A DNA stretch of 64,000 nt, taken from NCBI GenBank assembly GCA_964016885.1, contig OZ024740.1, forward strand, positions 307,210,001 to 307,274,000, read 5' to 3'. This document shows positions 4,528 through 64,000 of this stretch, piece by piece. The stretch is from Eledone cirrhosa (Eukaryota). Made by a program: the position numbers and the translations under genes. The first letter of the stretch is position 1, and every line of letters begins with the position of its first letter. The notes under the pieces were generated by a model that was not told the origin of the DNA, did not search any database, and worked only from the letters and a program-made list of their open reading frames with translations.

Positions 4528-5331
4528 GGGGTGAAAGAAGAAGGGAAGAAAGTCAAAAGGAAAATAGAGAAAGGGTAAAGAGGAGACAAATCATGTGAGC
4601 AGAAATATTTTAGAGTTATCGAAGGGCAAATTAGTATTGAAGGAAATGAAAAAGTCACTTCCTTTGTGTGTTTCTCCATTGTATCGATGTGCTGAAAAGT
4701 TCCCGACCTAGGGTTATCGCGAAAGGGTAGAGCTGTTACCTTTACAAGAAAGGTAGGACCGCTGCAATAAGTGTGTGAATCTAAGAGGAGAATATGTTGA
4801 ATAAAATCATAATTAACTGATCCTCTTGATTTTTCCTTTAACTCAAAGGTTTTCAACAGGGGGGGGGGGGGCATATGCCCCAGGGGGCGTTTCGGGGCTC
4901 CAGGAGGCGTTTAGGGGCAAGGGGGCGTTAGGGGGCGTTTGAGGCTTTGAGGGGCGCTGGAAGCCCCTTCAGCTTTTTAGTTTGGTAAGTTTTATAAGTC
5001 ATATTTGTACGTCTCTTAGACAGCCAGTGTGAATGCATTTGAATAAAGAAAACGAAGAAAATAAATAAAAGTAGCTTGTCAACGAATTCCCTAGGCAGAT
5101 AAAAAAAAAATGAAAGAAATCAAAGAAAATGAACATAAGGATGTCAACTTTGATAACAGTTACAAGAACAACTTCAACAGAAATGACAACAAAAAGAAGC
5201 AATGGTGATGAAAGGTGTGGGTGTATACATATACATACATACGAACATACACACATATGCATACATACATACATACATACATAAATACATACATACATAC
5301 ATACATACATACATACATACATACATACATA

Positions 5332-7109
5332 GGAAGGAGCAGGTTAAGACTGATAGGATACATTACCAGAAGGGCATCTTTCAGGGTGATAGCTTGTCAG
5401 TACTACTCTTCGTTCTCTCACTGAATCCACTATCTTACCTACTCAGGAAACAAGGTGGACAAAGAAGTGGGCCCAGAAGTATCTCCCATCTTTTCTTTGT
5501 TGATGACCTGAAGTTGTATGGGCCAAATATCAATGACATCAAGAAACAATTGGACCTCATTACACAATTTTCAACCGACATCAAAATGAAATTTGGTGAG
5601 TCCAAGTGTGCATATTTGGCAGTAAAACGTGGAAGAGCTGTGCCCTCCTCTAGAAATCTAGATATGAACGGCCTGACAATACAACCTCTGCAGTCAGGTG
5701 ACAACTACAGATATCTTGGACAGGATGAGAATGTCAGATATGATGGACCCATAAATAAGGAGAGAACCAGAACTGAATACCTCAGAAGAGTAAAAAAAAT
5801 ATGGTCATCAGAACTGTCAGCATACAACAAATACATTGCCCACAATACCTATGCTGTGCCAATTATAACGCCAACATTTGGCCTACTGAACTGGTCATTG
5901 CAAGAACTAAGTGAGATGGATGTTAGAACTCGTAAACTTCTCAGTGTTACTGGGAACTTTAACATCAATGGTGATGTGGATAGGCTATACTTCTCACGCA
6001 AGGAAGGTGGCCGGGGTCTAAAATCAATATTAACAACATATGAGACCCGGATAGTAACACTGAAGCAACACCTTCAACAGAGGAAAAAGGTTGGCGACCA
6101 TCTTGCTCAGGTTTATGAGCATGAAAAAAGAAATATCATTAGAATAGCGACTGATCTGGAGGAGAGATATGGAATAAAGCCTGATATAAATCTCTCACCC
6201 AGAGAAATCGGAAGATCCTATTCAATGTTCAAACAAGAAAAAAAAATTGACCAATTTACAGAGAAAGTTGTGCATGGATACTTGAGGCGTAAAACACAGA
6301 CCATAGAGGGGATAAACCACTCAAAAAGCCTGGCATGGAGTTCCGACAAGTTTATGACATCACACCTTGAGGGATATCTCTATGCAATACAGGAACAAGA
6401 ACTCCCTACCAAATATCTGCTGCACAAAAGAGGAGGGCCAGCAGCTGACAATAAATGTAGGCTATGTAAAACAAAGATCGAGGATGTAAGCCACATTGTT
6501 GCCAGCTGCGAAAGAATGTCATCTCGCTACTACCTCCCCATGAGACACGATGGGATAGCTAGAACTATCTGGAACGCACTTCGGAAAACAAAATTAACAA
6601 CAAACGAGGAAGAATATATTGAGACAGATGGCACTAAGGAATACTGGTGGAACCTGAAAATAAAAACTGCCACCAAATTAAAGCACAACCGGCCTGATAT
6701 TGTAGTTTGGGACCACACATTGAAAACGTGTTCTGTTGTGGAGATCAGCTGCCCACTTGATGTAAACGTTGTCAGAAAAATACAGGAGAAGGAGGACATC
6801 TACGGACCATTGATGAGGAGCTTACAAATCCAGTATCCAAGATACACCTTTAGCTTCATACCCATCATTATTGGTGCTACGGGTTATATACCAACCCGCT
6901 TGGACCAAAGTATGACCGAACTTGGATTTGCGGACAAAAAGCGCAGCTCCCTAATTCATAGTCTACAAATGGCTGCGATAGCTGGCACCTTCAAAATATG
7001 CAAAACATTCTTGCGATTCAAGGGATGACAATTTCTTTTCTTTTACAACCTTGCCACCAGGAAGGTGGCCGGTCAAAAAAATATACTCGAAATTAAGAGA
7101 AAGAGAAAA
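5332..7109 (+). mobile_element. 5'-truncated R4/Dong-like non-LTR retrotransposon (RT, CCHC knuckle, REL endonuclease); frame open to 7028
   Basis: Motifs KGIFQGDSLS, HLFFVDDLKL, CRLCKTKIEDVSHIVASC, RHD, NRPDIVVWD, VVEISCP. Flanked by (CATA)n at 5226-5331 and 7109-7139. Confidence 0.9.
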
Positions 7110-8835: not shown

Positions 8836-11592
8836 GATATCTTTCTTTATTTGCCACAGGGGCGTACAAAATGGGACATTACAAGACGTGACGGCGGGGG
8901 TTTTACATAAAAATAAATAACAATAAACTATATATAATAAAATAACAATTGAAATCCCCAGTAGGGGGGAACGTTACTGCAGGGTTGTTTTACACCCCGT
9001 GGATAGAACAACCCTCAACACCAGGAACACGTTTTGTAGGTGTTCCTGTCTTCCCTCTGTTGATCTTCCTCAACCTACAGGTTTATATACAGAGAAGGCC
9101 CATTCACTCGGGCCATTTTTGCCACATTCACCCACCTTTCAGCGAATTTACTGGGGTGTAGCACCTCTCTCTCCACTCTCACCTTCCTTCTGAAGTGATA
9201 CTTAAAGAAGGAGATACGTTGTTGTCCGGAGAGAAAGGTCTTTGCCCTCAGTCCTTTTAACTTCGTCCACCATATTACCTGTTTCGCCATAGCCACCAGA
9301 CAGAGGAAAACCGCCTCTCCTTCGTTCTTAAATGAAGGCGGTGGGGTGATCCTCACGATGGACTCGGCTGACAACTGGATGCGTCCCACGCGTGACAGCA
9401 GCTGTTCGACATAATTCCACAGGTCGGTCACCCCTGGGCACTGAACAATTGCGTGCAGAACGCTTTCGATGTCCTGCTCGCATCTTGGACAGGTCCTTTT
9501 GGCAGGATCTCTGCCAGGGCGTCCGTGCCTGTAGATTTTGTCTGGAACTGGTAGAGCTCCTCGGTAGCACTGCCAGGCCAGAGACCTCTGGAAGTTATCC
9601 ATAGGCCCTGGACGGAAAGTCCTCCCGAACAGATTGGTCAGTTCGTCCTCCTCGATGCCTGGAGTTACCCCGAGAACGTCGTCGCTCTTATTCTCCACTA
9701 ATCCCCTATAGAATGTCGAAGTAGAGTCTCCGCTGATTGCCGTTTCCGCTTGGTGGAGGACTGTGAGCGCCTGTAGGCACTCGAGGTGCCAGGCACCCAT
9801 TTTCGGTCTTCGCTTGACCCAGGACTGCAGCTCTGTTAGTGAGACGAGTTGTGGAAGAGCTTGTCTCACAAACGACAGCCACACCAGTTCACCGGTCGGG
9901 AATACCTGGAGATGGCGTAGCCTCAGCGCATGTTTGCGCATCATCAGCCACGGCATGCCCAGCCCTCCATTAGAAGGGTGTTGGCAGCAGATGGATCTCC
10001 TCAGCAATGGAGCCTGTTTCTTCCAGAGGAACCTGAAAAGTAGGCGTTCCATTTTGGTAAGGTATTCGCGGGGGCAAGGCACAACTGTCAAGCGGTAGTA
10101 GATAACGGATGCTATGTAAGTGTTTGCCACCTCCGCTCGACCTTTCAAGGAGAGTTTGTACTCAGCCCACTTCTGGGTGAGTGCAAACACCTTCGCCGTG
10201 ACCTCGTTCCAGTTCTTGTCCACCTGGAAGTCTGGACCGAATCAGACCCCGAGCAATTTCACCGGTCCTTCCGTCCAGTGTCCAACGACACTGTCGGAGG
10301 ACATGGGTTTGCCTCTCCATGTGCCGAGTTGCAAACCGACAGACTTGTTTGGGTTTAGTCTTACTCCTGTCAACGTTTCGTATTCCTGTAATAGGTTGCC
10401 GATTACCCTGATTTCCGAGGTTTTCGACACCATTACGGTTATGTCGTCGGCATAGGCTGACGCTGCTTTCCGCAGTCCTGGTTCGATCGGGATGCCCTGC
10501 AATAGCTCCAATTTCCGCAGTAACGGCTCGAGAGTCAGTACATACAGAATGGAGGAGAGAGGGCATCCCTGACGGATGGAACGCATGATTTGGAATGGCT
10601 CTGATAGGTAGCCAGTCACCTTGACTGTCGAGCAGATGCTGGTGTGCCTGGCAGCGATCCAGCCTCTAAAGACGGGACCGAAGCCAGCCGCCTTGAGAAC
10701 TGCTTCCAAGTATTGATGGTCGACCCTATCAAATGCCTTAGACTGATCTAAATTGATCAGAGCCCGACCAAAGCCATGATGTATCGCATGAGGTGGAGGT
10801 TGTCGTGTATGGACCTGGTCCGGATTGCACACGTTTGGGCTTCCCCTACCAGGTTCTCGACGACAAGCGCCAGCCTTGCTGCTAACACCTTGGCCAAAAT
10901 CTTTAACTCTGTGTTGAGCAGTGTTATGGGCCTGCAATTGCTTATCTCATCCCCCTTGTTCTCATCTTTCCTCATCAGCGTTACTACGCCTCTGCCTACG
11001 GAACTGGGAATCCTCCCGTTCTGCTGCCAGTTGCAGTAGACCTATTCGAGGACGCCAGAGAACAAGTCTGGCATGCCTATGTAAAACTCATAGGGTAGAC
11101 CATCTAAACCCGGTGATTTGCGTTTCCCGCAGTGGCCTAGGGCATCTTCTATTTCGCCCGCTGTGATCGGCCTTTCGCAGCTCTCCGCATCCGTGCTCGA
11201 GAGTCGCGGTACGCCGTCGAGGTAGGAGCTGAAGTCCATCACCTCGCTCGATGTACCGCTTTGCCCGCACATCTGCTTGGATTCAAGTATAATGCGTTCA
11301 TCTTTCCCTTGCAAAGACCGAATTGTGGATTTGTTGCCACTTTTTGCCTCTGCCACTCGGGCCCAGCTAAAAGCTTTGGCTCCCTCGTGTTCTACTTCTG
11401 ACAATACAACCTTCCTGTTTCACGTTGAAGAACTGGTCTAGTGCCGTTCTCGCCGCTAGCACGTCAGCTGTACTGCCATTCCTAAGTGCCTCTTCTATTT
11501 TAGCTACCAGTTCCTTTTCAGTTTTGTTTTTTTCTAAAGCTACTTCCTTGCTAAATGTTATCTAATTGCTCCCTTGAGAGAGCTCCACAACC
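8836..11592 (-). mobile_element. Tx1/L1-clade LINE, 5'-truncated, frameshifted ORF2
   Basis: Motifs KSPGLDGLPYEFY, RPITLLNTELKILAK, LDQSKAFDRVDH, RQGCPLS, AYADD, GGLGMP, CPRC..ESVLHAIVQC. Apparent TSD TGGAGATAGATA at 8824-8835 and 11593-11604. Confidence 0.9.
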
Positions 11593-25235: not shown

Positions 25236-27190
25236 TGAAGATTCAAGTAAAATAAAATGTGTGTGTGCTATAACCAATCTCAAGGTCAGAAATATGTTGG
25301 ATAAAGTGGTAGGAGGAACAAGATGGTAAAAGAATAAAACGAAAAAAGGATAATCAAATAAAATGTGTGTGTGTTATAAACAATCTCAACTTAAATATAA
25401 ATATAAGGTGATAAAGTGAAGAAAACAGAAAACAAATAAATGAATAATGAAAAATCAAAAATTAAAAATTAAAAATCAAGTAAATAAAATGTGTGTGTGT
25501 TATAAAGATGTTGGCCAAATTATAAAGGATGTGTCAGAATCAATCTCTAGGCTATCATGGTGCCTGCTCAGCCTGGGTTGGTCCCTATGGCTTGAGGGGA
25601 GTTCCCAACCTATGGTGTTGTTACTGCCCATATAGCTTGAGTGAGGTCTGGCCGAGAGGTGTCTACATGTTCTGGAGAAGTCCCTATAGCTTGAGGGGAG
25701 TTCACATCTTATTGTGTTGCTACTGTCCATATATCTTGAGGAAGGTCCCGGCCCTGAGGTGTCTGCATGTCCCGAAGAAGTCGGTTCTGAGGTTTATCAT
25801 GCGGCTTCCACCTCTTAGTATCTCGAGGGTCTCGTTCAGACATAGTTTGCATATGCCAAATCCCCCTTTATTGGGTGGTACTTTCCTGATTATGGACCAT
25901 GCCAGAGAGTACGGGGTCCTGTCCAGCTTAAGTTTCCAGATCAGGTCGGAGAGAGCCGTACTTTTCCTTTTGGCCTCCTTATTGAAGGAATGGCGATGGT
26001 TATACCAACGGTCTTTAAAGCTCGTTGATGTGGCTCCTATGTAGAGGTGTTCGAAGTTGTGGGTTTTAACCCTACAACCGTATACTAGGTTCTTCTTAAG
26101 GCATTCATTACTAAGGGGGCATGATTCGGGGTTTCTGCAATTGCAGAGGGGTGGTCGACCTCTGCGTGCCTAGAGTGGGGTTCCCGTTAAGTGTTACATG
26201 GTGGTCTTTCCCCTGGCACGGTGGAAGGGGGGGGGGGGTCCCGGGTTTGTTTGGGTTTCTTGGGTGGGCACTGGGTCCCCCCTTCTCTCCTTCCACATGG
26301 TTCTGCTGGGTGCTTGTATTGCCATCTTCTGGTTGTGTGTGGTTTTTAAGCTTACTCCTGTTGATGCTAGCTATGTGTTGGGCCAGATTTCTCGTGGTGG
26401 AATACGAGAGCTTCACAGTGTGTCTGTTGAAGATCCTGTGGTATCTATGGTCCCTCGGGAAGCATTTATCAAGTGCTCCAAAGAATGATCGGGCCAAGCT
26501 GTTCTTTAGGGCCGCTGAGTAGGGTGGGTTGTACCACGTGATTTTTCTGTGTCTCCTCCTATATGGGTGGGCTGGGGGCGTCGTGAGTTGGAGATTTGTT
26601 GGGTTGCTGGTGGTTCCCGCATTGTTGCTTCTCCTTTGGGCGCTATGCGTTTTGCTATCTTCACGGCCCGAATCTGTGGGGTGGTCGTTGCCCGCACTGG
26701 GAGATCCACCGTGGGGTGTTCCCCCGTTTCCCCCTCCCCCCACGTGTCCTGCGGTTGGGGTCGTCTGGCCCGGGGTGGTTAGCATCACCCCTGAGACTGC
26801 TACTCATATTGGGTTTCATCTCATGGTTAAGCGTACTCGTCACCAACGCCCGTGTGGTGGTGTCGGGCTCATGGTGCCTATTTGTTTCTGTTCTGTCTGT
26901 ATTGTTAGGGTTCGCCGCCTCCCGGACAACGCGGGTGTGGGTGTCCGTTGGGCCATCCCCATCCCGGCGTTTCGGACTATATGTTATATTTTGGCCATGT
27001 GCCGCCTTATTTAGAGCTGCGTTGTAATATTCCGCGTTGTTATCGAAGATTTCCTCACTTGCGGACAGGCTGGCGATCCTGTCCGAGACACACTTCACCA
27101 CGGCCTTGGTTATGGATCTAGGGTGGTTTGACTTGGCGTTAACATACACGAGTTTCTCGTTGGACTTGTGGTAGGGGTAGTATTTTATTT

Positions 27191-44620: not shown

Positions 44621-45128
44621 TGCATGTACACATGTACAGACACAAAGTATATGCAAATGCGCATAAATAACTCAAAACATCAACATCCACACATGCATTA
44701 ACATCCATATATATATATTAGGTTATGCAAGAAATGCTTAGGATTATCCTGAATGCAGTAATGGTCAATTACTTCACTGGATAGAGTTGACGTACGGTGA
44801 GGGGTTACTTAACGAGTTATGGAAGAATAGTTGGAGAAACTCAGTTTCTGATCCTTCTGTATTCCGGAGTGTAGATAAAGAATGAATAATAACAGGTAGA
44901 CATCATAAAAAGGTAATTTATTCCGTGTGCTATCCACGGAATAAATTACCTTTTTGTGATGTCTACCTGTTATTATTAATTCTTTTTATATATATATATA
45001 TATATTATATAAGTTATTCCGGGCTGAATCGGAGGTAACCACAATACATAGCAGACTATAAAAGTGTTAATATAGAAGAGCTTCTACAGGACTAGAACTG
45101 TTTCATTCGTGAAAAATCATCAGGAAGC

Positions 45129-45177
45129 GCTTCCTGATGATTTCTCACGAATGAAACAGTTCTAGTCCTGTAGAAGC
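45129..45177 (+). ncRNA. Complete type I hammerhead, mirrored on the minus strand at 45080-45128
   Basis: GCUUC-CUGAUGA-UUUC-UCAC-GAAU-GAAA-CAG-UUCUAGUC-CUG-UA-GAAGC; GUA triplet. Confidence 0.85.
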
Positions 45178-45178
45178 T

Positions 45179-45255
<77 letters not shown>

Positions 45256-45641: not shown

Positions 45642-45823
45642 AATTGTTTCTACTTTAGGCACAAGGCCAGCAATTACCCAGTGCATTACTGGTACTTTAT
45701 TTTATCGATCCCGTAAGGATGAAAGGCAAAGTCAACCTCGGCGGGATTTGAACTCAGATCGTAAAGGGACGTAACTATGCTGGAAAGCATGGCGTCCGAC
45801 CCTCTACCGATACTGCCAATCCA
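45641..45823 (-). mobile_element. tRNA-derived SINE (family 1)
   Basis: Near-identical to 17501-17684. Confidence 0.8.
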
Positions 45824-50647: not shown

Positions 50648-51412
50648 GCGTGCGTGTGTGTGTGTGTGTGTATGTGTGTGTGTGTGTGTAATTTTGTCTT
50701 ACAACAGCAAAATCCGACAAGCCTAGAGTAGCTCCAAAACACACCAAACGAAATAAAATTACAATTAAAACCATAAGACCGAAGACTTTTGAACGGGGAT
50801 CTTAGTCCATACATATATTATTTTTCCTTAGACAAATCTACCTAACAATTAAATACAACGAAAATTAAAACCTATCCGCTATACCAGTACTATGTAGAAG
50901 TGTATTGTAAGCAATAGTGGAATGAATGATGGTGTGTATATATACCACGTACGTAGACATGTACACGTATAATAAATAAAATTCATACATAAAACACACA
51001 ATAAAAAATAATAAAGCTAACACAATGCACACACAACACCTTTGAAATAAGGTCCTGGAGGACAAACCGAAACCATAACGTAAAAGTAAACGAAGTGGAT
51101 GCACTACTTATGATAACCCTCGCAGAAGTGAAACTCAACCGGCGTGTGTTTTTGGTTGGCAGTGTGATAACCCAAACACACGATTTTACATTAAAAAAAT
51201 CTTACAAAACAAATATAAAAACGATTTCAAACGAATGAAACAGTTCTAGTCCCGTAGAAGACATGCTTTAGATTGTTTAATTAAAACTATATCTCTAGGG
51301 AAAGATACTTGTGAAGTGTGCTTTTTAGATTACTATATTGGGATCTAACCCTCAGTTATTTTGTTCTCTCTCTCTCTCTTTACCTCTCTCTATCTCTATC
51401 TCTCTCTCACTC

Positions 51413-54050: not shown

Positions 54051-55324
54051 TAAAATAACAGATTAAAGTTTAAGCAAAGAATCGCTGCTTTCACCCTTAA
54101 CGGGATCTTCTGAAACTAACAAAGTCAATCTGTAAACGCAGAACTGGATATTTCAAAAAACGTTGCAACCGGAGGAAGACAGGAAGACGATACTTTGGTT
54201 CGTGGAAACGTTCGCTGGCTAAGAACGGGAAAAAACGAATATAATACGTCATTAATAGGAGCGGTGAAAAACAATTACGCGCAAAGACAGAACCACGTTT
54301 ATAGTATAATAGAGGTCGTAGACTAATGTTCTCTTAGGTGGTGCATAGAGACGTTCTCAATACGTCATATGTGGAGCGTGGAGAACAATAGCACGCAAAG
54401 ACAAAACCACGTAAATGGTATAGCAGAAGTCGTAGACTAAATTCTAACTAGGAGACCGAATGAATCTCCGCTACGGAGTTAAGAACAAAGTAAATAAATA
54501 CAATAGAGAAGTAATAGAAATAAATAAATACATACACGCAAACAGAAATGTACATACACAAGCATACGCAAAAACTTACCATAGGTAAACAAAACCACGC
54601 ACATATAAATATGTGTGTGTGTGTGTAAGCGTGTATACAAATAAATAAATAATTATATAAACGTATATAAATAAATAAATAATTATATAAACGTATATAA
54701 ATAAATAAATACGTATATAACAAGCGCACACACATACCTACATGTAAATACACGAATGTTCGGAGACGTAAGTCAACCAAAACATGAAGTACACATATAC
54801 ACACGCCCTACATACGTACGAACCTGCATACTCACACAGACGCAAAACTCCTGTATACACATAGTCGAACCATATGTACTAGAATATATAAAAAAAATAT
54901 ATGGCCAGAATATATAAAAAAATTATACGCCATAACAATCAAATATACGTACGAGAAGGTATACGTAGCTTCACAAAACATACGGATAATATATACTTAC
55001 CTATGCAAATAAGTAAAGGTATAAACAAAACATATACTTAGCTCCCACATCGAGACGTAAAATATCCACGTATAGATCGTACTATCCGCTAGGGTATAAC
55101 GTGGGGCTGTAATACAGGAAAGTTTTGTGCAATTTATGTTTACAAGCCGAAATTGCCTCAGATTTTTTGTTTAAGATGTGGTCTGTGGCGTAGAGTATTT
55201 CCAGGTTCTTATATATTTGATATATATTTATCCTTATCGAGCACTCTTTGGAGTTTAGTCTTCAAATTTATTATTATTACTATTTGGCTCCCTCGGTTGA
55301 GCACTCTACTGACTTATATTCATC

Positions 55325-57454
55325 ATGCAGAAACAACATCTGAATATTTCTACAAAGAACATACCCGTACCAAACAGGTAAACATACCTAAAACTCCTGA
55401 TACAGAAAACAGACGCGTTCATTAAAAGGTTGCGTTGGCGGGCCTTTTACTTCGATAATCCGCGAAAAGCAGACAACAAACAGGATAAATTTGGATTTAA
55501 AACCTATAATATCCCCCCGTGTAACCCAGCATTGCTACCCTTCGAAAATGATGTCTTGGAACTCATTCGGAGTATCAAATTTCGGAATAGGAGCAATTCC
55601 TTCCAGCTAGACCTGAAGAATAGAATTCGTTCTATTAAGGATTCTAATGCCGTGCACGTCCATTCCGACAAACCTGGCAACCTATATCAAGTGGAGCGCA
55701 GTACTTACCATCAACTACTACATAATACTGTAACTAAGGATTACCGTAAAACTAATCGGTGCGTCATCAATGAAATCAACGATGCTGGGTTTAAAATCAC
55801 ATCTGATCTCAACATCCTGGACCGGACCGAACCTCTGGACCCTATTTCTCCCCACTTTACCCTGAAGGATCACAAATCCAATTTTCCGAACAACCCCTCT
55901 ATTCGGCTTATTAACCCTACGAAGTCCGATTTAGGTAGACTTAGTAAGACGATTCTTGATAGAATTATACCTGAAATTAGAAGTTTGGCTCCTCTTGCAC
56001 TGTGGAACAATTCCTTCGCGGTGATTGATTGGTTCAACGGCATACGTAACAAGGAACATTGCCGTTTTATCCAATTCGACATCAACAATTACTACTCCTC
56101 CATCACTTTACCACTTCTCCTTAGAGCTATCAATTTCGCTAAAACACTCACAGTGGTTAAGGATTTCGAAGTTGATGTCATCCTCAATGCCCGTAAGTCG
56201 GTGATTAATTTCGACGACTCTATTTGGATTAAAAAATCCAATAGTACCCCATTCGACGTGAGTATGGGCGCCAGTGATTCTGCGGAGGTTACTGATCTTA
56301 TCGGCCTTTTCCTTCTTTTCTCTATCAAGGACGAATTCTCCAACGCGGGCGGTGGTTTGTACCGTGACGATGGTCTTTTGACCATGACTAAGTGCGGACC
56401 TCGTGCTTGCGACAGGTTCAGAAAAGAACTCACAGCCTTCTTTAAAGGCTTCAACCTTTCTATACAGGTTGAGGCTAATCTCTCGGTCGTTAATTACCTC
56501 GACGTTACCCTCAACCTATTGAATGGGTTGTATTACCCGTATAGAAAGCCGAATGATACGCTTAATTACATAAGTAAGCATTCCAACCATCCTGCCAGCA
56601 TAACCAAGAACCTGGTAAGAAACGTTTCGTTGAGGCTTTCCCGTCTTTCCACCAACGAGCGTATTTTCAACGACCATTCCACTTATTACAATGAAGCTCT
56701 TGCTCGAAGTGGATTTGTCGATAAGGTAGCATATACAGGGTACGAAAATAGACCTAGAAGAAATAGATCCCGTCGCATTTGTTGGTATAACCCACCATAT
56801 AATATGGAGGTGGCCACACCATTAGCTAAGATCTTTCTTTCCCTTATTACGAAGCATTTTCCCCCTACACATAAATATAGTAAAATTTTTAATAGAAATA
56901 CTATTAAAATTTCTTACTCTACGACTCCTAACCTTGCACATAACATCACAGCTTCAAATTTAGCTAAACTACCTAGCCGTAGGAACACGTGCAACCCTGT
57001 AGTTAGTACTAACTGTAATTGTAGGAATCGGGTTGATTGCCCCCTATCCGGTAAATGCCTCTCTAGTAACATTGTCTACAAATGTAAGGTTGTAACATCC
57101 ACGTCCCGTAGGGCCTACATAGGGTTAACCGCCAATAGATTCAAGCAGCGTCTTTACATGCATACCCATTCTTTTCGTTACCCTCTAAGAAGGAATATGA
57201 CGTCACTTTCAGCTTATATCTGGAGTCTAAAAGACAACCACACCCAATATAAGTTACACTGGGAGATCCTAGCGAGGGCTAGATCGTATAATGGAAATAA
57301 AAGACCATGTGACCTCTGCGCCGCTGAGGCCCTGGAAATACTCTACGCCACAGACCACATCTTAAACAAAAAATCTGAGGCAATTTCGGCTTGTAAACAT
57401 AAATTGCACAAAACTTTCCTGTATTACAGCCCCACGTTATACCCTAACGGATAG
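55325..57454 (+). CDS. PLE reverse transcriptase / GIY-YIG endonuclease polyprotein (Naiad-like), one premature stop
   Basis: ATG at 55325 (MQKQHLNISTKNIP), in-frame TAA at 55379-55381, then open. Motifs FDINNYYSSI, FDVSMGASDSAE, GLYRDDGL, WYNPPY, CNC..CPL.GKC, IVY..YIG..FKQR, CDLC..E..CKH. Confidence 0.9.
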
Positions 57455-58386
57455 TACGATCTATACGTGGATATTTTACGTCTCGATGTGGGAGCTAAGT
57501 ATATGTTTTGTTTATACCTTTACTTATTTGCATAGGTAAGTATATATTATCCGTATGTTTTGTGAAGCTACGTATACCTTCTCGTACGTATATTTGATTG
57601 TTATGGCGTATAATTTTTTTATATATTCTGGTACATATGGTTCGACTAAGTGTATACGGGAGTTTTGCGTCTGTGTGAGTATGCAGGTTCGTACGTATGT
57701 AGGGCGTGTGTATATGTGTACTTCATGTTTTGGTTGACTTACGTCTCCGAACATTCGTGTATTTACATGTAGGTATGTGTGTGCGCTTGTTATATACGTA
57801 TTTATTTATTTATATACGTTTATATAATTATTTATTTATTTGTATACACGCTTACACACACACACATATTTATATGTGCGTGGTTTTGTTTACCTATGGT
57901 AAGTTTTTGCGTATGCTTGTGTATGTACGTTTCTGTTTGCGTGTATGTATTTATTTATTTCTATTACTTCTGTATTGTATTTATTTACTTTGTTCTTAAC
58001 TCCGTAGCGGAGATTCATTCGGTCTCCTAGTTAGAATTTAGTCTACGACTTCTGCTATACCATTTACGTGGTTTTGTCTTTGCGTGCTATTGTTCTCCAC
58101 GCTCCACATATGACGTATTATCTTCGTTTTTTTCGTTCATCGCCAGAGAACGTCTCTATGCACCACCTAAGAGAACATTAGTCTACGACCTCTATTATAC
58201 TATAAACGTGGTTCTGTCTTTGCGCGTAATTGTTTTTCACCGCTCCTATTAATGACGTATTATATTCGTTTTTTCCCGTTCTTAGCCAGCGAACGTTTCC
58301 ACGAACCAAAGTATCGTCTTCCTGTCTTCCTCCGGTTGCAACGTTTTTTGAAATATCCAGTTCTGCGTTTACAGATTGACTTTGTT

Positions 58387-58437
58387 AGTTTCAGAAGATC
58401 CCGTTAAGGGTGAAAGCAGCGATTCTTTGCTTAAACT
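58387..58437 (+). ncRNA. Variant type I hammerhead in the PLE pseudo-LTR
   Basis: AGUUU-CAGAAGA-UCCC-GUUAA-GGGU-GAAA-GCA..UGC-UU-AAACU. Same core at about 54068-54118 (-) and 28625-28675 (-). Confidence 0.6.
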
Positions 58438-58544
58438 TTAATCTGTTATTTTAATAAATATTTGCTCTACGGTTCTTATATATTTGATATATATTTATCC
58501 TTATCGAGCCCTCTTTGGATTTTAGTCTTCAAATTTATTATTAT

Positions 58545-58606
<62 letters not shown>

Positions 58607-58614
<8 letters not shown>

Positions 58615-59065
58615 ATTAAGTCAAATATGTAAAATTTGGCTTCGTTTATTATAAATTAAAAATTACTGCTATATATATTTCGGTGACAGCCATCATTGGC
58701 TGTGATCTCTTCAGGCAGTCCGAATTGGTGTGGAAAAGACAGGTACACATGTTGTTGAAGTGTGAATAACAACACACCCAGGAGCTGGACATATCGATGT
58801 ATTGACGGAGTAAAACACACTTCAACAACATGTGTACCTGTCTTTTCCACACCAATTCGGACTGCCTGAAGAGGTCACAGCCAATGATGGCTGTCACCAA
58901 AATATATATGGCAGTAATTTTTCATTTATAATAAACGAAGCCAAATTTTACATATTTGACTTAATTATTTTACACTACTCCGGAGTAAACAAACCAACTT
59001 GCGTACTTTGCCGAGTGCTCCAATCTGCATACTGAGGTGTTGTTAATCAACCAACATATACTCAA
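58607..59065 (+). mobile_element. Palindromic HHR mini-element, same family as the 23950-27185 PLE 3' end
   Basis: Arms 58607-58764 and 58816-58972. Intact HHR on minus at 58665-58719, mutated mirror at 58861-58915. The tail matches 23950-24200. Confidence 0.8.
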
Positions 59066-61674: not shown

Positions 61675-64000
61675 ATCAATGATATTAATAAATGGAAACT
61701 ATATTTATAAAACCATATTTATTCTATTATATATATTTCAAGGATACTAAAACTTTGGTACGCTCTCATCAAATAAAATACAAAGTTTATTTTATAAATA
61801 TTGACATATCCAGGAATGAGACCTTAACGGTTCAAGTTTTACCTGGATAGTAAAAGGAAAAAAGGGGAAGTGAGGAAAAAAACAAATATTTCAAATTATT
61901 TAGATGAATATGCAAATGACGTAGGGCGGAAAAAAACGTTATTTTTAGACGCTATGTAGATTTAAATAATTATTAGGATATATATATATATATATATATA
62001 TATAGGAAGAAGAAAGAGAAAGAAAGAAAAGCTTGTATTTATATTACTACAATGTACGTGAATTAAAAAAGATTGAAACGTTAAGAATTAAAAGTTTGTT
62101 GGAGTGGTGGAATATGATTCCAGAATTTTAAAAATATTTAGCTAAATTATGAGTTATAATATTATATATATAATCAATTAGATTATATGAAGAATTATGG
62201 TTGTAAGTACATTTTATCTTATTATATTACAGCAGGTTGTAATTATATAAATATCTATATAGATTAATAAGTGTATAAATATAAATATTATTGGTGATTA
62301 TATAGATATAAAACACACGTATTAATTTGTTTACATTTCTGATATGAGTTACGAAGGATGTTGATTTTACATTTTAAACATATATTTAAGAAAAAGACGT
62401 AGTTCAAATTATAAGAGAAGAACAATTTGTAGATTCAAATATTTTCATCAAACATTGAAAATATTTACAAAACATTATTAATTTAGGGAAATTACATATA
62501 ATTTATCATACAAGTTATTATGTCTATGTTTGCTCAATTGTAAAGGAAAAGATAACTCCAATATTATTTGTTAAACTATTAATATTAGATTTGATGAATA
62601 ATTTTCTTAGAAAATGCGGAAAGAATGTAGAGAAAATTATATATTATTTTGTGTGAGATTATAAGGTATTTTATATTACATGTTTTCAAGGATGAGAATT
62701 TCAATTATATATGTATTATCTACGTCGAAAGATGTGTGAAAAGGTTGAAGATTAAAGAGAGGAAAAATGTATTATCAGATAAGTCAAGAGTGAATTTAGA
62801 ATAACTATTGTAAAGAGGATATCTTTCAAAGTATCAATCTAAAAAAATATATAAATCTAAAAAATAGATTAAGAAGAGTATCATTAGGAAAAGAATATCA
62901 ATTGGTAAAAATACTAAAGAAGAAAAAGATTATTTAAAAAGTAAAAAAAAAAACCTCACTAAACAACAGAATCATTTTAAAGATGTATAAGATGTAGTCA
63001 AGTGTAATGAATATTATAGATTAAAAATACTTCGGAAAGTGGATTTTTGGCGATGTCTGCAAGAACTGAATAATTCGCTTTTTAGATTAATAAAATTTTG
63101 ACAGTCAATTATATAAAAAATTTCCTCGATACACAAATGACAGATTCTTGAGAAAGCCATATTTCGGTATGCAGGTGCTTTCGAAATCGTTCCCCAAGAT
63201 ATTGTATAGTCTATATTATTGTCCTTTAAATTCAAAATTAGATATGAAGATGAAGTGGAAGATTTTTTATCGGACCTATTAAATGTATGTTTGTGGTTAT
63301 ACCAGCGTTCTTTGAATTTTGTAGAAGTGGCACCTATATAGTTAAATATTTTGTCTCTAGTTTTTACTGTGCATTTATAAATTAAGTTTTTGTCTAAGCA
63401 ATTGTTTTGTAAAGGGCAGTTTGATTCTACAGTTACATTTTCGGGAGTTGTTGTTAGTAGAAACGGTACTATTAGTATGAATATTGTTATTAGAAATATT
63501 ATTATTGTTATCTTGGTTTGTTTGGTTAGGGTTTAAATTTAAGTTTCTATTATTAATTCTATTTATATTTTGTGCTATGTTCATAGTAGTAGAGTAAGAT
63601 AGTTTTATAATGTGTCTGTTAAAAATAGAGTGGTAGCTGTGGGCTTTAGGAAAACACTTATCCAGTGCTTTGAAAAATAGTTTTGCTACAGGTGTTTTAA
63701 CACCTAATGAGAATGGGGGAGAGTACCAAATAATATTTCTAGTTCTAGATTTTTTGTTTGGTTTCCTATTTAAGTTGAATTGCTTATTATTATTATAATA
63801 AATTTTATGATGGTTTATCATGTTATTGTTGTCTAAGTATTTAATTTTATTCGTGTATCCTGCTCTATGTAAAGCCTCATTGTAATATTCTGCCTTATTA
63901 TCAAAAATATTTTTATTAGCGGAGATGCGTGAAAATTCTTTGCTGGACACTATTGACAATAGTATTTTTTATATTTCTAGGATGATTAGAATTGAAACTT
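61675..64000 (-). mobile_element. Naiad-like PLE 3' half (runs off the window) with AT-rich 3' region and HHR
   Basis: WYSPPFS, KLSYST, CNCR, YIG..FKERW, CHLCIEE..SCRH; frameshifts present. HHR-like UUGAUGA..GAAA-UAUAUA-UA at 61720-61780. Confidence 0.85.

What the first reader, a model, noticed from the sequence alone, without database searches (positions are those of the whole stretch)
45007..45181. Two complete hammerheads back-to-back in a 106-bp palindrome: a ribozyme on each strand
Seen: 45076-45181 is a near-perfect inverted repeat whose axis lies exactly at the first base of stem I of a complete type I HHR (CUGAUGA core, GAAA, GUA triplet). Either strand's transcript would therefore carry one ribozyme plus its antisense. 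The insert sits between TA tracts and encodes no protein. Known: PLEs carry HHRs in their pseudo-LTRs and often show 5' inversions. Inference: a minimal snap-back PLE product, or a dedicated non-autonomous hairpin-ribozyme retroelement in which hairpin and ribozyme folds compete.
Basis: partly seen in the sequence, partly recalled or inferred. Interest (0 to 1): 0.8.

Follow-up and report, generated by a model that had tools for sequence, protein, structure and literature searches.

The report
Two-armed Penelope retrotransposon insertion stump
This mirror-image pair of hammerhead ribozyme motifs is one of thousands of short stumps left in this genome by a Penelope-like jumping gene, likely made when two copies of the element's RNA start were joined head to head during insertion, and it is predicted to be inactive rather than a self-spreading hairpin element.

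Summary
The palindrome (45076-45181; 52 of 53 pairs) and both hammerhead motifs are real. They are the 5' leader/pseudo-LTR of a Hydra-clade Penelope-like element (PLE); an intact 713-aa RT/GIY-YIG parent lies elsewhere in the genome. At least 4,748 loci carry such head-to-head pairs, with many different junctions; only 19 have this exact axis, and those belong to several subfamilies, so the palindrome is rebuilt at each insertion. The axis is neither fixed nor random: arm ends pile up at the first bases of stem I, 29-31 nt below a conserved TATA box, often with one non-genomic G. This points to a capped transcription start (inferred). The short arm usually reaches the axis more completely than the long arm (25 vs 5), which snap-back copying cannot give; two separately primed cDNAs fit better. 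On either strand the antisense arm is transcribed first, the hairpin (-85 kcal/mol) outweighs the ribozyme fold (about -6), and the upstream promoter is lost, so this copy is predicted dead. Known architecture, new family member; the junction statistics bear on an open question of PLE mechanism.

The parts
45011..45128 (-). Long arm: PLE 5' leader/pLTR from stem I (+1) to the distal priming site (about +134), with a 16-nt internal deletion
   Evidence: 112 of 120 aligned bases identical to the ORF-linked leader of L217, one 16-nt gap
45129..45181 (+). Short arm: the same leader from +1 to +53, running into (TA)n near the family's +59 end site
   Evidence: family end sites +59 and +72
45129..45177 (+). 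Type I hammerhead motif, Hydra-clade style (U.U at the base of stem II); predicted cut between 45172 and 45173
   Evidence: motif scan, pair counts, comparison with File S2 of PMC8557442; cleavage untested
45080..45128 (-). Second type I hammerhead motif; one stem II pair changed to U.G; predicted cut between 45085 and 45084
   Evidence: cleavage untested
45124..45133 (.). Head-to-head junction, blunt, both arms ending at +1; one of many junction forms in the family
   Evidence: 19 loci genome-wide against 4,748 head-to-head loci
44987..45010 (.). Left (TA)n target tract, shared with a neighbouring two-armed insertion of another family
45181..45253 (.). Right (TA)n target tract

Best explanation
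The feature is a short two-armed insertion of the hammerhead-bearing leader of a Hydra-clade Penelope-like retrotransposon, likely formed when both strands of a cut (TA)n site each primed a cDNA on uncut element RNA and the two cDNAs were joined at the RNA's 5' end. Shown: the arms are the leader/pLTR of an autonomous RT + GIY-YIG element; thousands of such pairs exist with variable junctions; arm outer ends cluster at three sites (+59, +72, about +133); inner ends cluster at -2..+2. Inferred: transcription starts at the A just before stem I, under a TATA box 29-31 nt upstream; RT starts inside the RNA, 60-135 nt from the cap, as shown in vitro for another PLE (PMC11167929), runs off the capped end, and the two cDNA 3' ends join bluntly or by short microhomology. 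Predicted: this copy has lost the upstream promoter, and any read-through RNA folds as one long hairpin, so it neither self-cleaves nor spreads. Odds: about 0.9 for 'PLE insertion by-product', about 0.6 for the two-cDNA/capped-start mechanism.
For: Parent: L107 has leader + 713-aa ORF + 3' pLTR with the same ribozyme; many near-identical copies with 758-codon open frames; the window's own subfamily is ORF-linked in L217 and L219. Copy number: 2,336 exact core 30-mers, 7,794 exact tail 32-mers, 4,748 head-to-head pairs. In 90 tail-selected loci, 57 have an adjacent inverted arm; its outer end is +59 (19) or +72 (27); in the 47 with the axis at or below -3, the short arm ends at -2..+2 in 31. 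The short arm is more complete at the axis by >=3 nt in 25 loci, the long arm in 5 (p=0.0003; 19 vs 5 for differences of 3-35 nt); in L188 the arms do not overlap at all. TATA box at -29 to -31 and an initiator-like CCAG/TCAG in 10 of 10 upstream-extending copies from three subfamilies. Arms reaching position 0 are followed by C (a non-genomic G in RNA sense) 1,050 times and by A/G/T 553 times; an extra G is the published mark of a copied cap in L1 (PMC11702581, PMC9341517; passages). Both arms share subfamily variants (loop II identical in 21 of 24 loci, 0.22 expected between loci). Hairpin -85.4 kcal/mol versus -16.7 for the best fold that keeps the ribozyme helices.
Against: No RNA data: the start site, the cap and cleavage are untested. 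The extra C has other readings: in the first 100 rows, 18 can be read as the other arm starting at +5, about 9 as the other arm starting at the genomic C at -1, and 3 as stem I hairpin-templated extension (hand counts). Four ORF-bearing copies without an upstream pLTR begin 4-14 nt above the predicted start (L108, L133/L134, L215, L216). The same CAG follows a pyrimidine tract and could be a splice acceptor, as the intron end maps to helix I in D. virilis (PMC4209133). The arm asymmetry could be inflated by later deletions at the palindrome centre and by my selection on the tail; L150 and L152 are one duplicated insertion. The 90-locus sample comes from the first 60 Mb of one contig and is mostly the younger subfamily. 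In the window's subfamily the queried arm ended at -2..+1 in 13 of 30 loci, but arm asymmetry was not tallied there.
Confidence: 0.75

Rival explanations
1. Snap-back or self-priming: one cDNA (or an antisense RNA, as proposed in PMC3846280) folds back at its 3' end and is copied, making the second arm.
For: Many junctions look like 3-4-nt hairpin loops; arms share variants; in this copy and in 5 sampled loci the long arm contains the whole short arm.
Against: A fold-back copy cannot exceed its template at either end, yet in 25 of 47 loci one arm is longer at the axis and the other longer at the outer end, in 11 by >=15 nt. This copy's junction is blunt, with no unpaired loop.
Confidence: 0.15
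2. Dedicated non-autonomous hairpin-ribozyme element that is transcribed and copied as a whole palindrome.
For: High copy number; 19 loci share the exact axis; one locus is a full symmetric palindrome with both tails (L004).
Against: About 30 junction forms among the first 50 loci (hand count); 18 of the 19 same-axis loci examined differ in subfamily marks and arm ends, and none of the other 17 has this copy's tail deletion; the promoter lies upstream of the axis and is absent; the ribozyme fold has negligible weight in the hairpin.
Confidence: 0.04
3. Same PLE origin, but the 5' hotspot is set by something other than a capped start: a splice acceptor at the CAG, or RT stopping when the cDNA can form the stem I hairpin.
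For: Pyrimidine tract + CAG directly before stem I; a precedent in D. virilis (PMC4209133); a few junctions show stem I-templated extension.
Against: No common upstream exon sequence is seen in the junction strings; TATA spacing is conserved while the sequence between diverges.
Confidence: 0.2

Closest known systems
Hydra clade of C-terminal EN+ Penelope-like elements (Craig et al. 2021, PMC8557442)
   Same: Single RT + GIY-YIG ORF with RWR, DKT, CxCX5C linker, late CxxC and CxH; (TA)n target; hammerhead of the form ctgatgat-stem II-tgaa; an attached 5' inverted copy is noted for Penelope-13_HM.
   Different: A different family from the listed ones, to judge by hammerhead sequence (File S2); here it is very abundant, whereas few non-cnidarian families were reported; the passages read give no junction statistics or start site.
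General PLE insertion unit: inverted 5'-truncated pLTR plus optional tail (PMC8557442 Fig. 2; PMC3846280); opposite-strand hammerhead pairs in Schistosoma (PMC4209133)
   Same: Head-to-head inverted arms, tail on one arm only, palindromic junction, TATA/Inr-like motifs in the pLTR.
   Different: Here the whole insert is the two arms, the two ribozymes abut with no spacer (100-700 bp apart in Schistosoma), and the 'tail' is 60-75 nt rather than 30-40.
PAc/Poseidon of Anolis, internal RT initiation (Frangieh et al. 2024, PMC11167929)
   Same: Both target strands cut and extended in AT-rich DNA; RT starts at discrete internal sites just downstream of the hammerhead; uncut RNA is the main template.
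   Different: Three outer end sites here (+59, +72, about +133) rather than two; ORF starts about 180 nt after stem I instead of inside the ribozyme.
Animal non-LTR retrozymes (bioRxiv 10.64898/2026.07.22.740005; PMC7229834 listing only)
   Same: Small, non-coding, type I hammerhead, PLE-derived.
   Different: Retrozymes are head-to-tail tandem repeats able to give unit-length or circular RNA; this is head-to-head and cannot.

Membership tests
Hydra-clade PLE (parent element) | Single ORF, RT followed by C-terminal GIY-YIG endonuclease | tested here: met
   713-aa ORF, YRDD at 347, GIY-YIG-like motif at 585-604; Pfam gives only a weak GIY-YIG hit, E=0.012
Hydra-clade PLE (parent element) | RWK-type motif and DKT in place of DKG | tested here: met
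   RWR at 38, DKT at 116; RW[KR] in 114 and DKT in 111 of 120 homologues
Hydra-clade PLE (parent element) | CxCX5C linker; CxxC and CxH near the C terminus | tested here: met
   positions 566, 666, 694; in 113, 118, 117 of 120 homologues
Hydra-clade PLE (parent element) | No CCHH zinc finger between GIY and YIG | tested here: inconclusive
   This ORF has two cysteines there, but 92 parsable homologues have 0 (76) or 1 (16)
Hydra-clade PLE (parent element) | Insertion into (TA)n; hammerhead in the pLTR | tested here: met
   82 of 90 tail ends are followed by TATA within 10 nt, 3 continue into the ORF leader; hammerhead in both repeats of L107
Hydra-clade PLE (parent element) | Grouping with named Hydra families in an RT phylogeny | not tested
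   Only compared by eye with Fig. S7 of PMC8557442; no reference sequences were available as tool data
Type I hammerhead ribozyme | Core C3-A9, G12-A14, A15.1-U16.1, H17 | tested here: met
   present in both arms
Type I hammerhead ribozyme | Three helices supported by variation | tested here: met
   In 229 collected arms stem I pair 2-48 is A-U in 104 and C-G in 78 (one subfamily-level change); loop II varies while stems II and III stay paired (arms were selected on the core and are related)
Type I hammerhead ribozyme | 10.1-11.1 base pair | tested here: not met
   U.U in 225 of 229 arms; U10.1-U11.1 is a described natural variant (PMC3088659) and the same ctgatgat...tgaa form is common in Hydra PLEs
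Type I hammerhead ribozyme | Self-cleavage | not testable with these tools
   No assay; long-arm 5' ends at the cut site (+43..+46) are 5 of 90, no more than at another site with the same microhomology (7 at +20..+25)
Non-LTR retrozyme | Head-to-tail tandem units, each with a hammerhead | tested here: not met
   head-to-head here and in 57 of 90 sampled loci
Self-propagating palindromic element (MITE-like) | Fixed centre and fixed ends inherited together | tested here: not met

The most novel reading that the evidence does not exclude
This family records the PLE integration mechanism thousands of times over: a TATA-driven capped transcript begins at the first base of the hammerhead, the uncut RNA is reverse transcribed from both target strands at fixed internal sites, and the two 'strong-stop'-like cDNAs are joined head to head. 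PLE palindromes would then come from twin priming that runs to the cap, not from self-priming on antisense RNA as proposed earlier.
Probability: 0.55. Interest if true: 0.5.

Novelty: new member of a known kind. Interest (0 to 1): 0.3.

Why it matters
The locus itself is an ordinary dead insertion. The family is useful: how PLEs make their inverted 5' copies is stated as unresolved in PMC3846280 and PMC8557442, and here thousands of young junctions plus intact parents allow twin priming, self-priming and ribozyme-cut models to be told apart by counting. Thousands of 100-270-nt perfect palindromes could also feed double-stranded RNA silencing of the element or cause local instability (not tested).

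Tried and rejected
Rfam: no hammerhead hit; only generic hairpin (miRNA-like) matches far below gathering scores, rejected as an effect of the palindrome. Loose core pattern in the window: not above shuffles (11 overlapping matches, 18 of 100 shuffles as many). PDB sequence search with the ORF: nothing significant. Bacterial promoter scan: irrelevant to this host, nothing found. Ribozyme cut site as the axis: not supported. One search's tail-selected tally wrongly merged 16 distinct loci with identical local sequence (n=74); it was redone as (n=90), which is the one reported; one search is an earlier version with other references (55 inverted arms) and agrees. One search printed plus-strand loci in the wrong orientation; corrected. 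Literature searches showed no paper describing this family or a cap-defined inversion axis in PLEs; the library lacks most subscription papers, and Lunse et al. 2017 was not read. Earlier-scan look-ups by sequence and by this genome returned nothing.

Full report
Numbering: +1 is the first base of the 5-bp stem I (window 45129 on +, 45128 on -); 0 is the base before it in the parent element.

1. Observation. The 106-nt palindrome is real: 1 mismatch in 53 pairs, hairpin -85 to -89 kcal/mol, 0 of 200 shuffles as stable. Each arm holds a complete type I hammerhead motif; these are the only two found by a relaxed scan of the window. Rfam does not recognise them and a single arm folds no better than shuffles. 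The left arm continues to about 45011; both ends lie in (TA)n.

2. Family. The window lies in G000 (3.0 Gb). The genome holds 2,336 exact copies of a core 30-mer, 7,794 of a tail 32-mer and 4,748 head-to-head core pairs with spacers up to 20 nt; reversed-pattern controls gave 0. Two tail loci continued into an ORF. One, L107, is a complete element: leader, 713-aa ORF, microsatellite-rich 3' region, and a 3' pseudo-LTR ending just past the hammerhead. A search with its first 200 aa scored 150 of 17,996 candidates; many are 98-100% identical with 758-codon open frames, so one subfamily is young. The window copy belongs to an older subfamily: its long arm matches the ORF-linked leader of L217 at 112 of 120 bases with a 16-nt deletion. 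L217's own ORF is interrupted (open frame 304 aa).

3. Classification. The ORF has RWR, DKT, YRDD, CxCX5C, a GIY-YIG-like motif, CxxC and CxH, each shared by 111-120 of 120 homologues except the GIY-YIG pattern (87). These are the marks of the Hydra clade (PMC8557442 section 11). By eye it resembles the Hydra rows of Fig. S7, and the hammerhead has the ctgatgat-stem II-tgaa form of many Hydra families in File S2. No tree was built. Across 229 arms (128 distinct), stem I has one compensatory change between subfamilies, loop II varies, and 10.1-11.1 is U.U, a described natural variant (PMC3088659 passage).

4. Is the axis fixed? No. The first 50 head-to-head loci show spacers of 4-17 nt and about 30 junction forms (hand count); none has this copy's junction, which occurs at 19 loci genome-wide (a pattern with shorter flanks). 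In 18 of those 19 examined, subfamily marks and arm ends differ between loci but are mostly shared by the two arms of a locus. So the palindrome is rebuilt at each insertion from one RNA species.

5. Is it random? No. In 90 tail-selected loci (the first 90 of 7,794, all on contig C1), 57 have an adjacent inverted arm. Its outer end is +59 (19), +72 (27) or +55..+66 (11); the tail arm ends near +133. Ten of the 57 invert further upstream, as ordinary truncations do. In the other 47 the short arm reaches -2..+2 in 31 and the long arm in 17; 27 of all 90 keep both cores and 18 keep both whole ribozymes. In 30 core-selected loci of the window's subfamily, 13 end at -2..+1 and 19 have an inverted arm. 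Ends at the ribozyme cut site are not enriched beyond microhomology (5 of 90 at +43..+46, two of them one duplicated insertion; 7 at +20..+25), in line with uncut RNA being the template in vitro (PMC11167929, parts 1-2 of 4 read).

6. Why there? Copies that extend upstream carry a TATA box 29-31 nt above position 0 in 10 of 10 checked, across three subfamilies whose intervening sequence differs, with CCAAT and CACCC boxes further up in the four checked and an initiator-like CCAG/TCAG at the hotspot (promoter consensus and spacing recalled). In the young subfamily, arms reaching 0 are followed by C 1,050 times and by A/G/T 553 times; only 7 of the first 100 of the latter continue with the genomic GGG (hand count). 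A non-genomic G is the published sign of a copied cap in L1 (passages of PMC9341517 and PMC11702581). About 30 of the first 100 C-rows allow another reading, and four ORF-bearing copies start 4-14 nt higher, so the capped start is an inference. A splice acceptor at the same CAG is the main alternative (PMC4209133, parts 1-2 read). Penelope of D. virilis has a TATA-less internal promoter (PMC2377424 passages), so this layout differs from it.

7. One cDNA or two? A fold-back copy cannot be longer than its template at either end. In 25 of 47 loci the short arm is more complete at the axis by >=3 nt while the other arm is longer at the outer end; the reverse holds in 5 (p=0.0003; 19 vs 5 in the 3-35-nt range detectable both ways; 11 vs 1 at >=15 nt). 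This disfavours snap-back and the antisense self-priming proposed in PMC3846280 (passages), and fits two cDNAs primed from the two target strands, as PAc cuts and extends both strands. Later central deletions and selection on the tail could inflate the asymmetry. This single copy cannot decide the point, though its loop-free blunt junction fits end-to-end joining.

8. Activity. On either strand the antisense arm precedes the sense ribozyme. The hairpin is -85.4 kcal/mol; the best fold that keeps the ribozyme helices is -16.7. The predicted promoter lies beyond the axis and is absent. The copy is predicted to be silent as a ribozyme and unable to spread; not tested.

9. Known versus new. Inverted 5' copies, tails and opposite-strand hammerhead pairs are described PLE features (PMC8557442, PMC3846280, PMC4209133). 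It is not a retrozyme (head-to-tail by definition; bioRxiv 10.64898/2026.07.22.740005, part 1 of 5 read). Earlier notes of this scan reached like verdicts in other genomes (unchecked AI notes). What is added here is a Hydra-clade family not in the list read, and junction statistics pointing to a cap-defined axis and twin priming. bioRxiv supplements were not available. Verdict: new member of a known kind; interest 0.3.

Noticed in passing
window 44717-44990: A second two-armed insertion of a different repeat family directly left of the finding: long arm 44717-44927, short arm 44935-44990, variable junction among copies, (TA)n ends, no hammerhead core at the axis; 607 first-look candidates in G000. 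Parent not identified.
   Followed up: partly
window 55085-58550: Near-complete copy of a second Hydra-type PLE, 52% identical to the L107 ORF, with one early stop, an inverted 5' piece (55085-55216) and a 3' hammerhead-like motif near 58390-58445 whose core reads CAGAAGA (U4 changed to A); the same variant appears in flanks of other loci.
   Followed up: partly
window 25741-27176 and 63032-63993 (- strand): Further decayed fragments of Hydra-type PLE ORFs.
   Followed up: no
window 51223-51259: Isolated 37-nt fragment of the same hammerhead's 3' half.
   Followed up: no
window 58720-58900; flanks of L003, L040, L122: Other small palindromic inserts with apparent hammerhead-type cores in TA tracts, suggesting that several PLE families here leave the same kind of stump.
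   Followed up: no
L004 (G000:C9:54371287-54371562): A fully symmetric palindrome of about 275 nt with both arms ending at the distal site.
   Followed up: no
window 5187-7028 and 9075-10241: LINE-type RT and zf-RVT fragments.
   Followed up: no
window 45650-45800 and many flanks: An abundant short repeat that, from recall only, resembles octopus SINEs; host identity was not tested.
   Followed up: no
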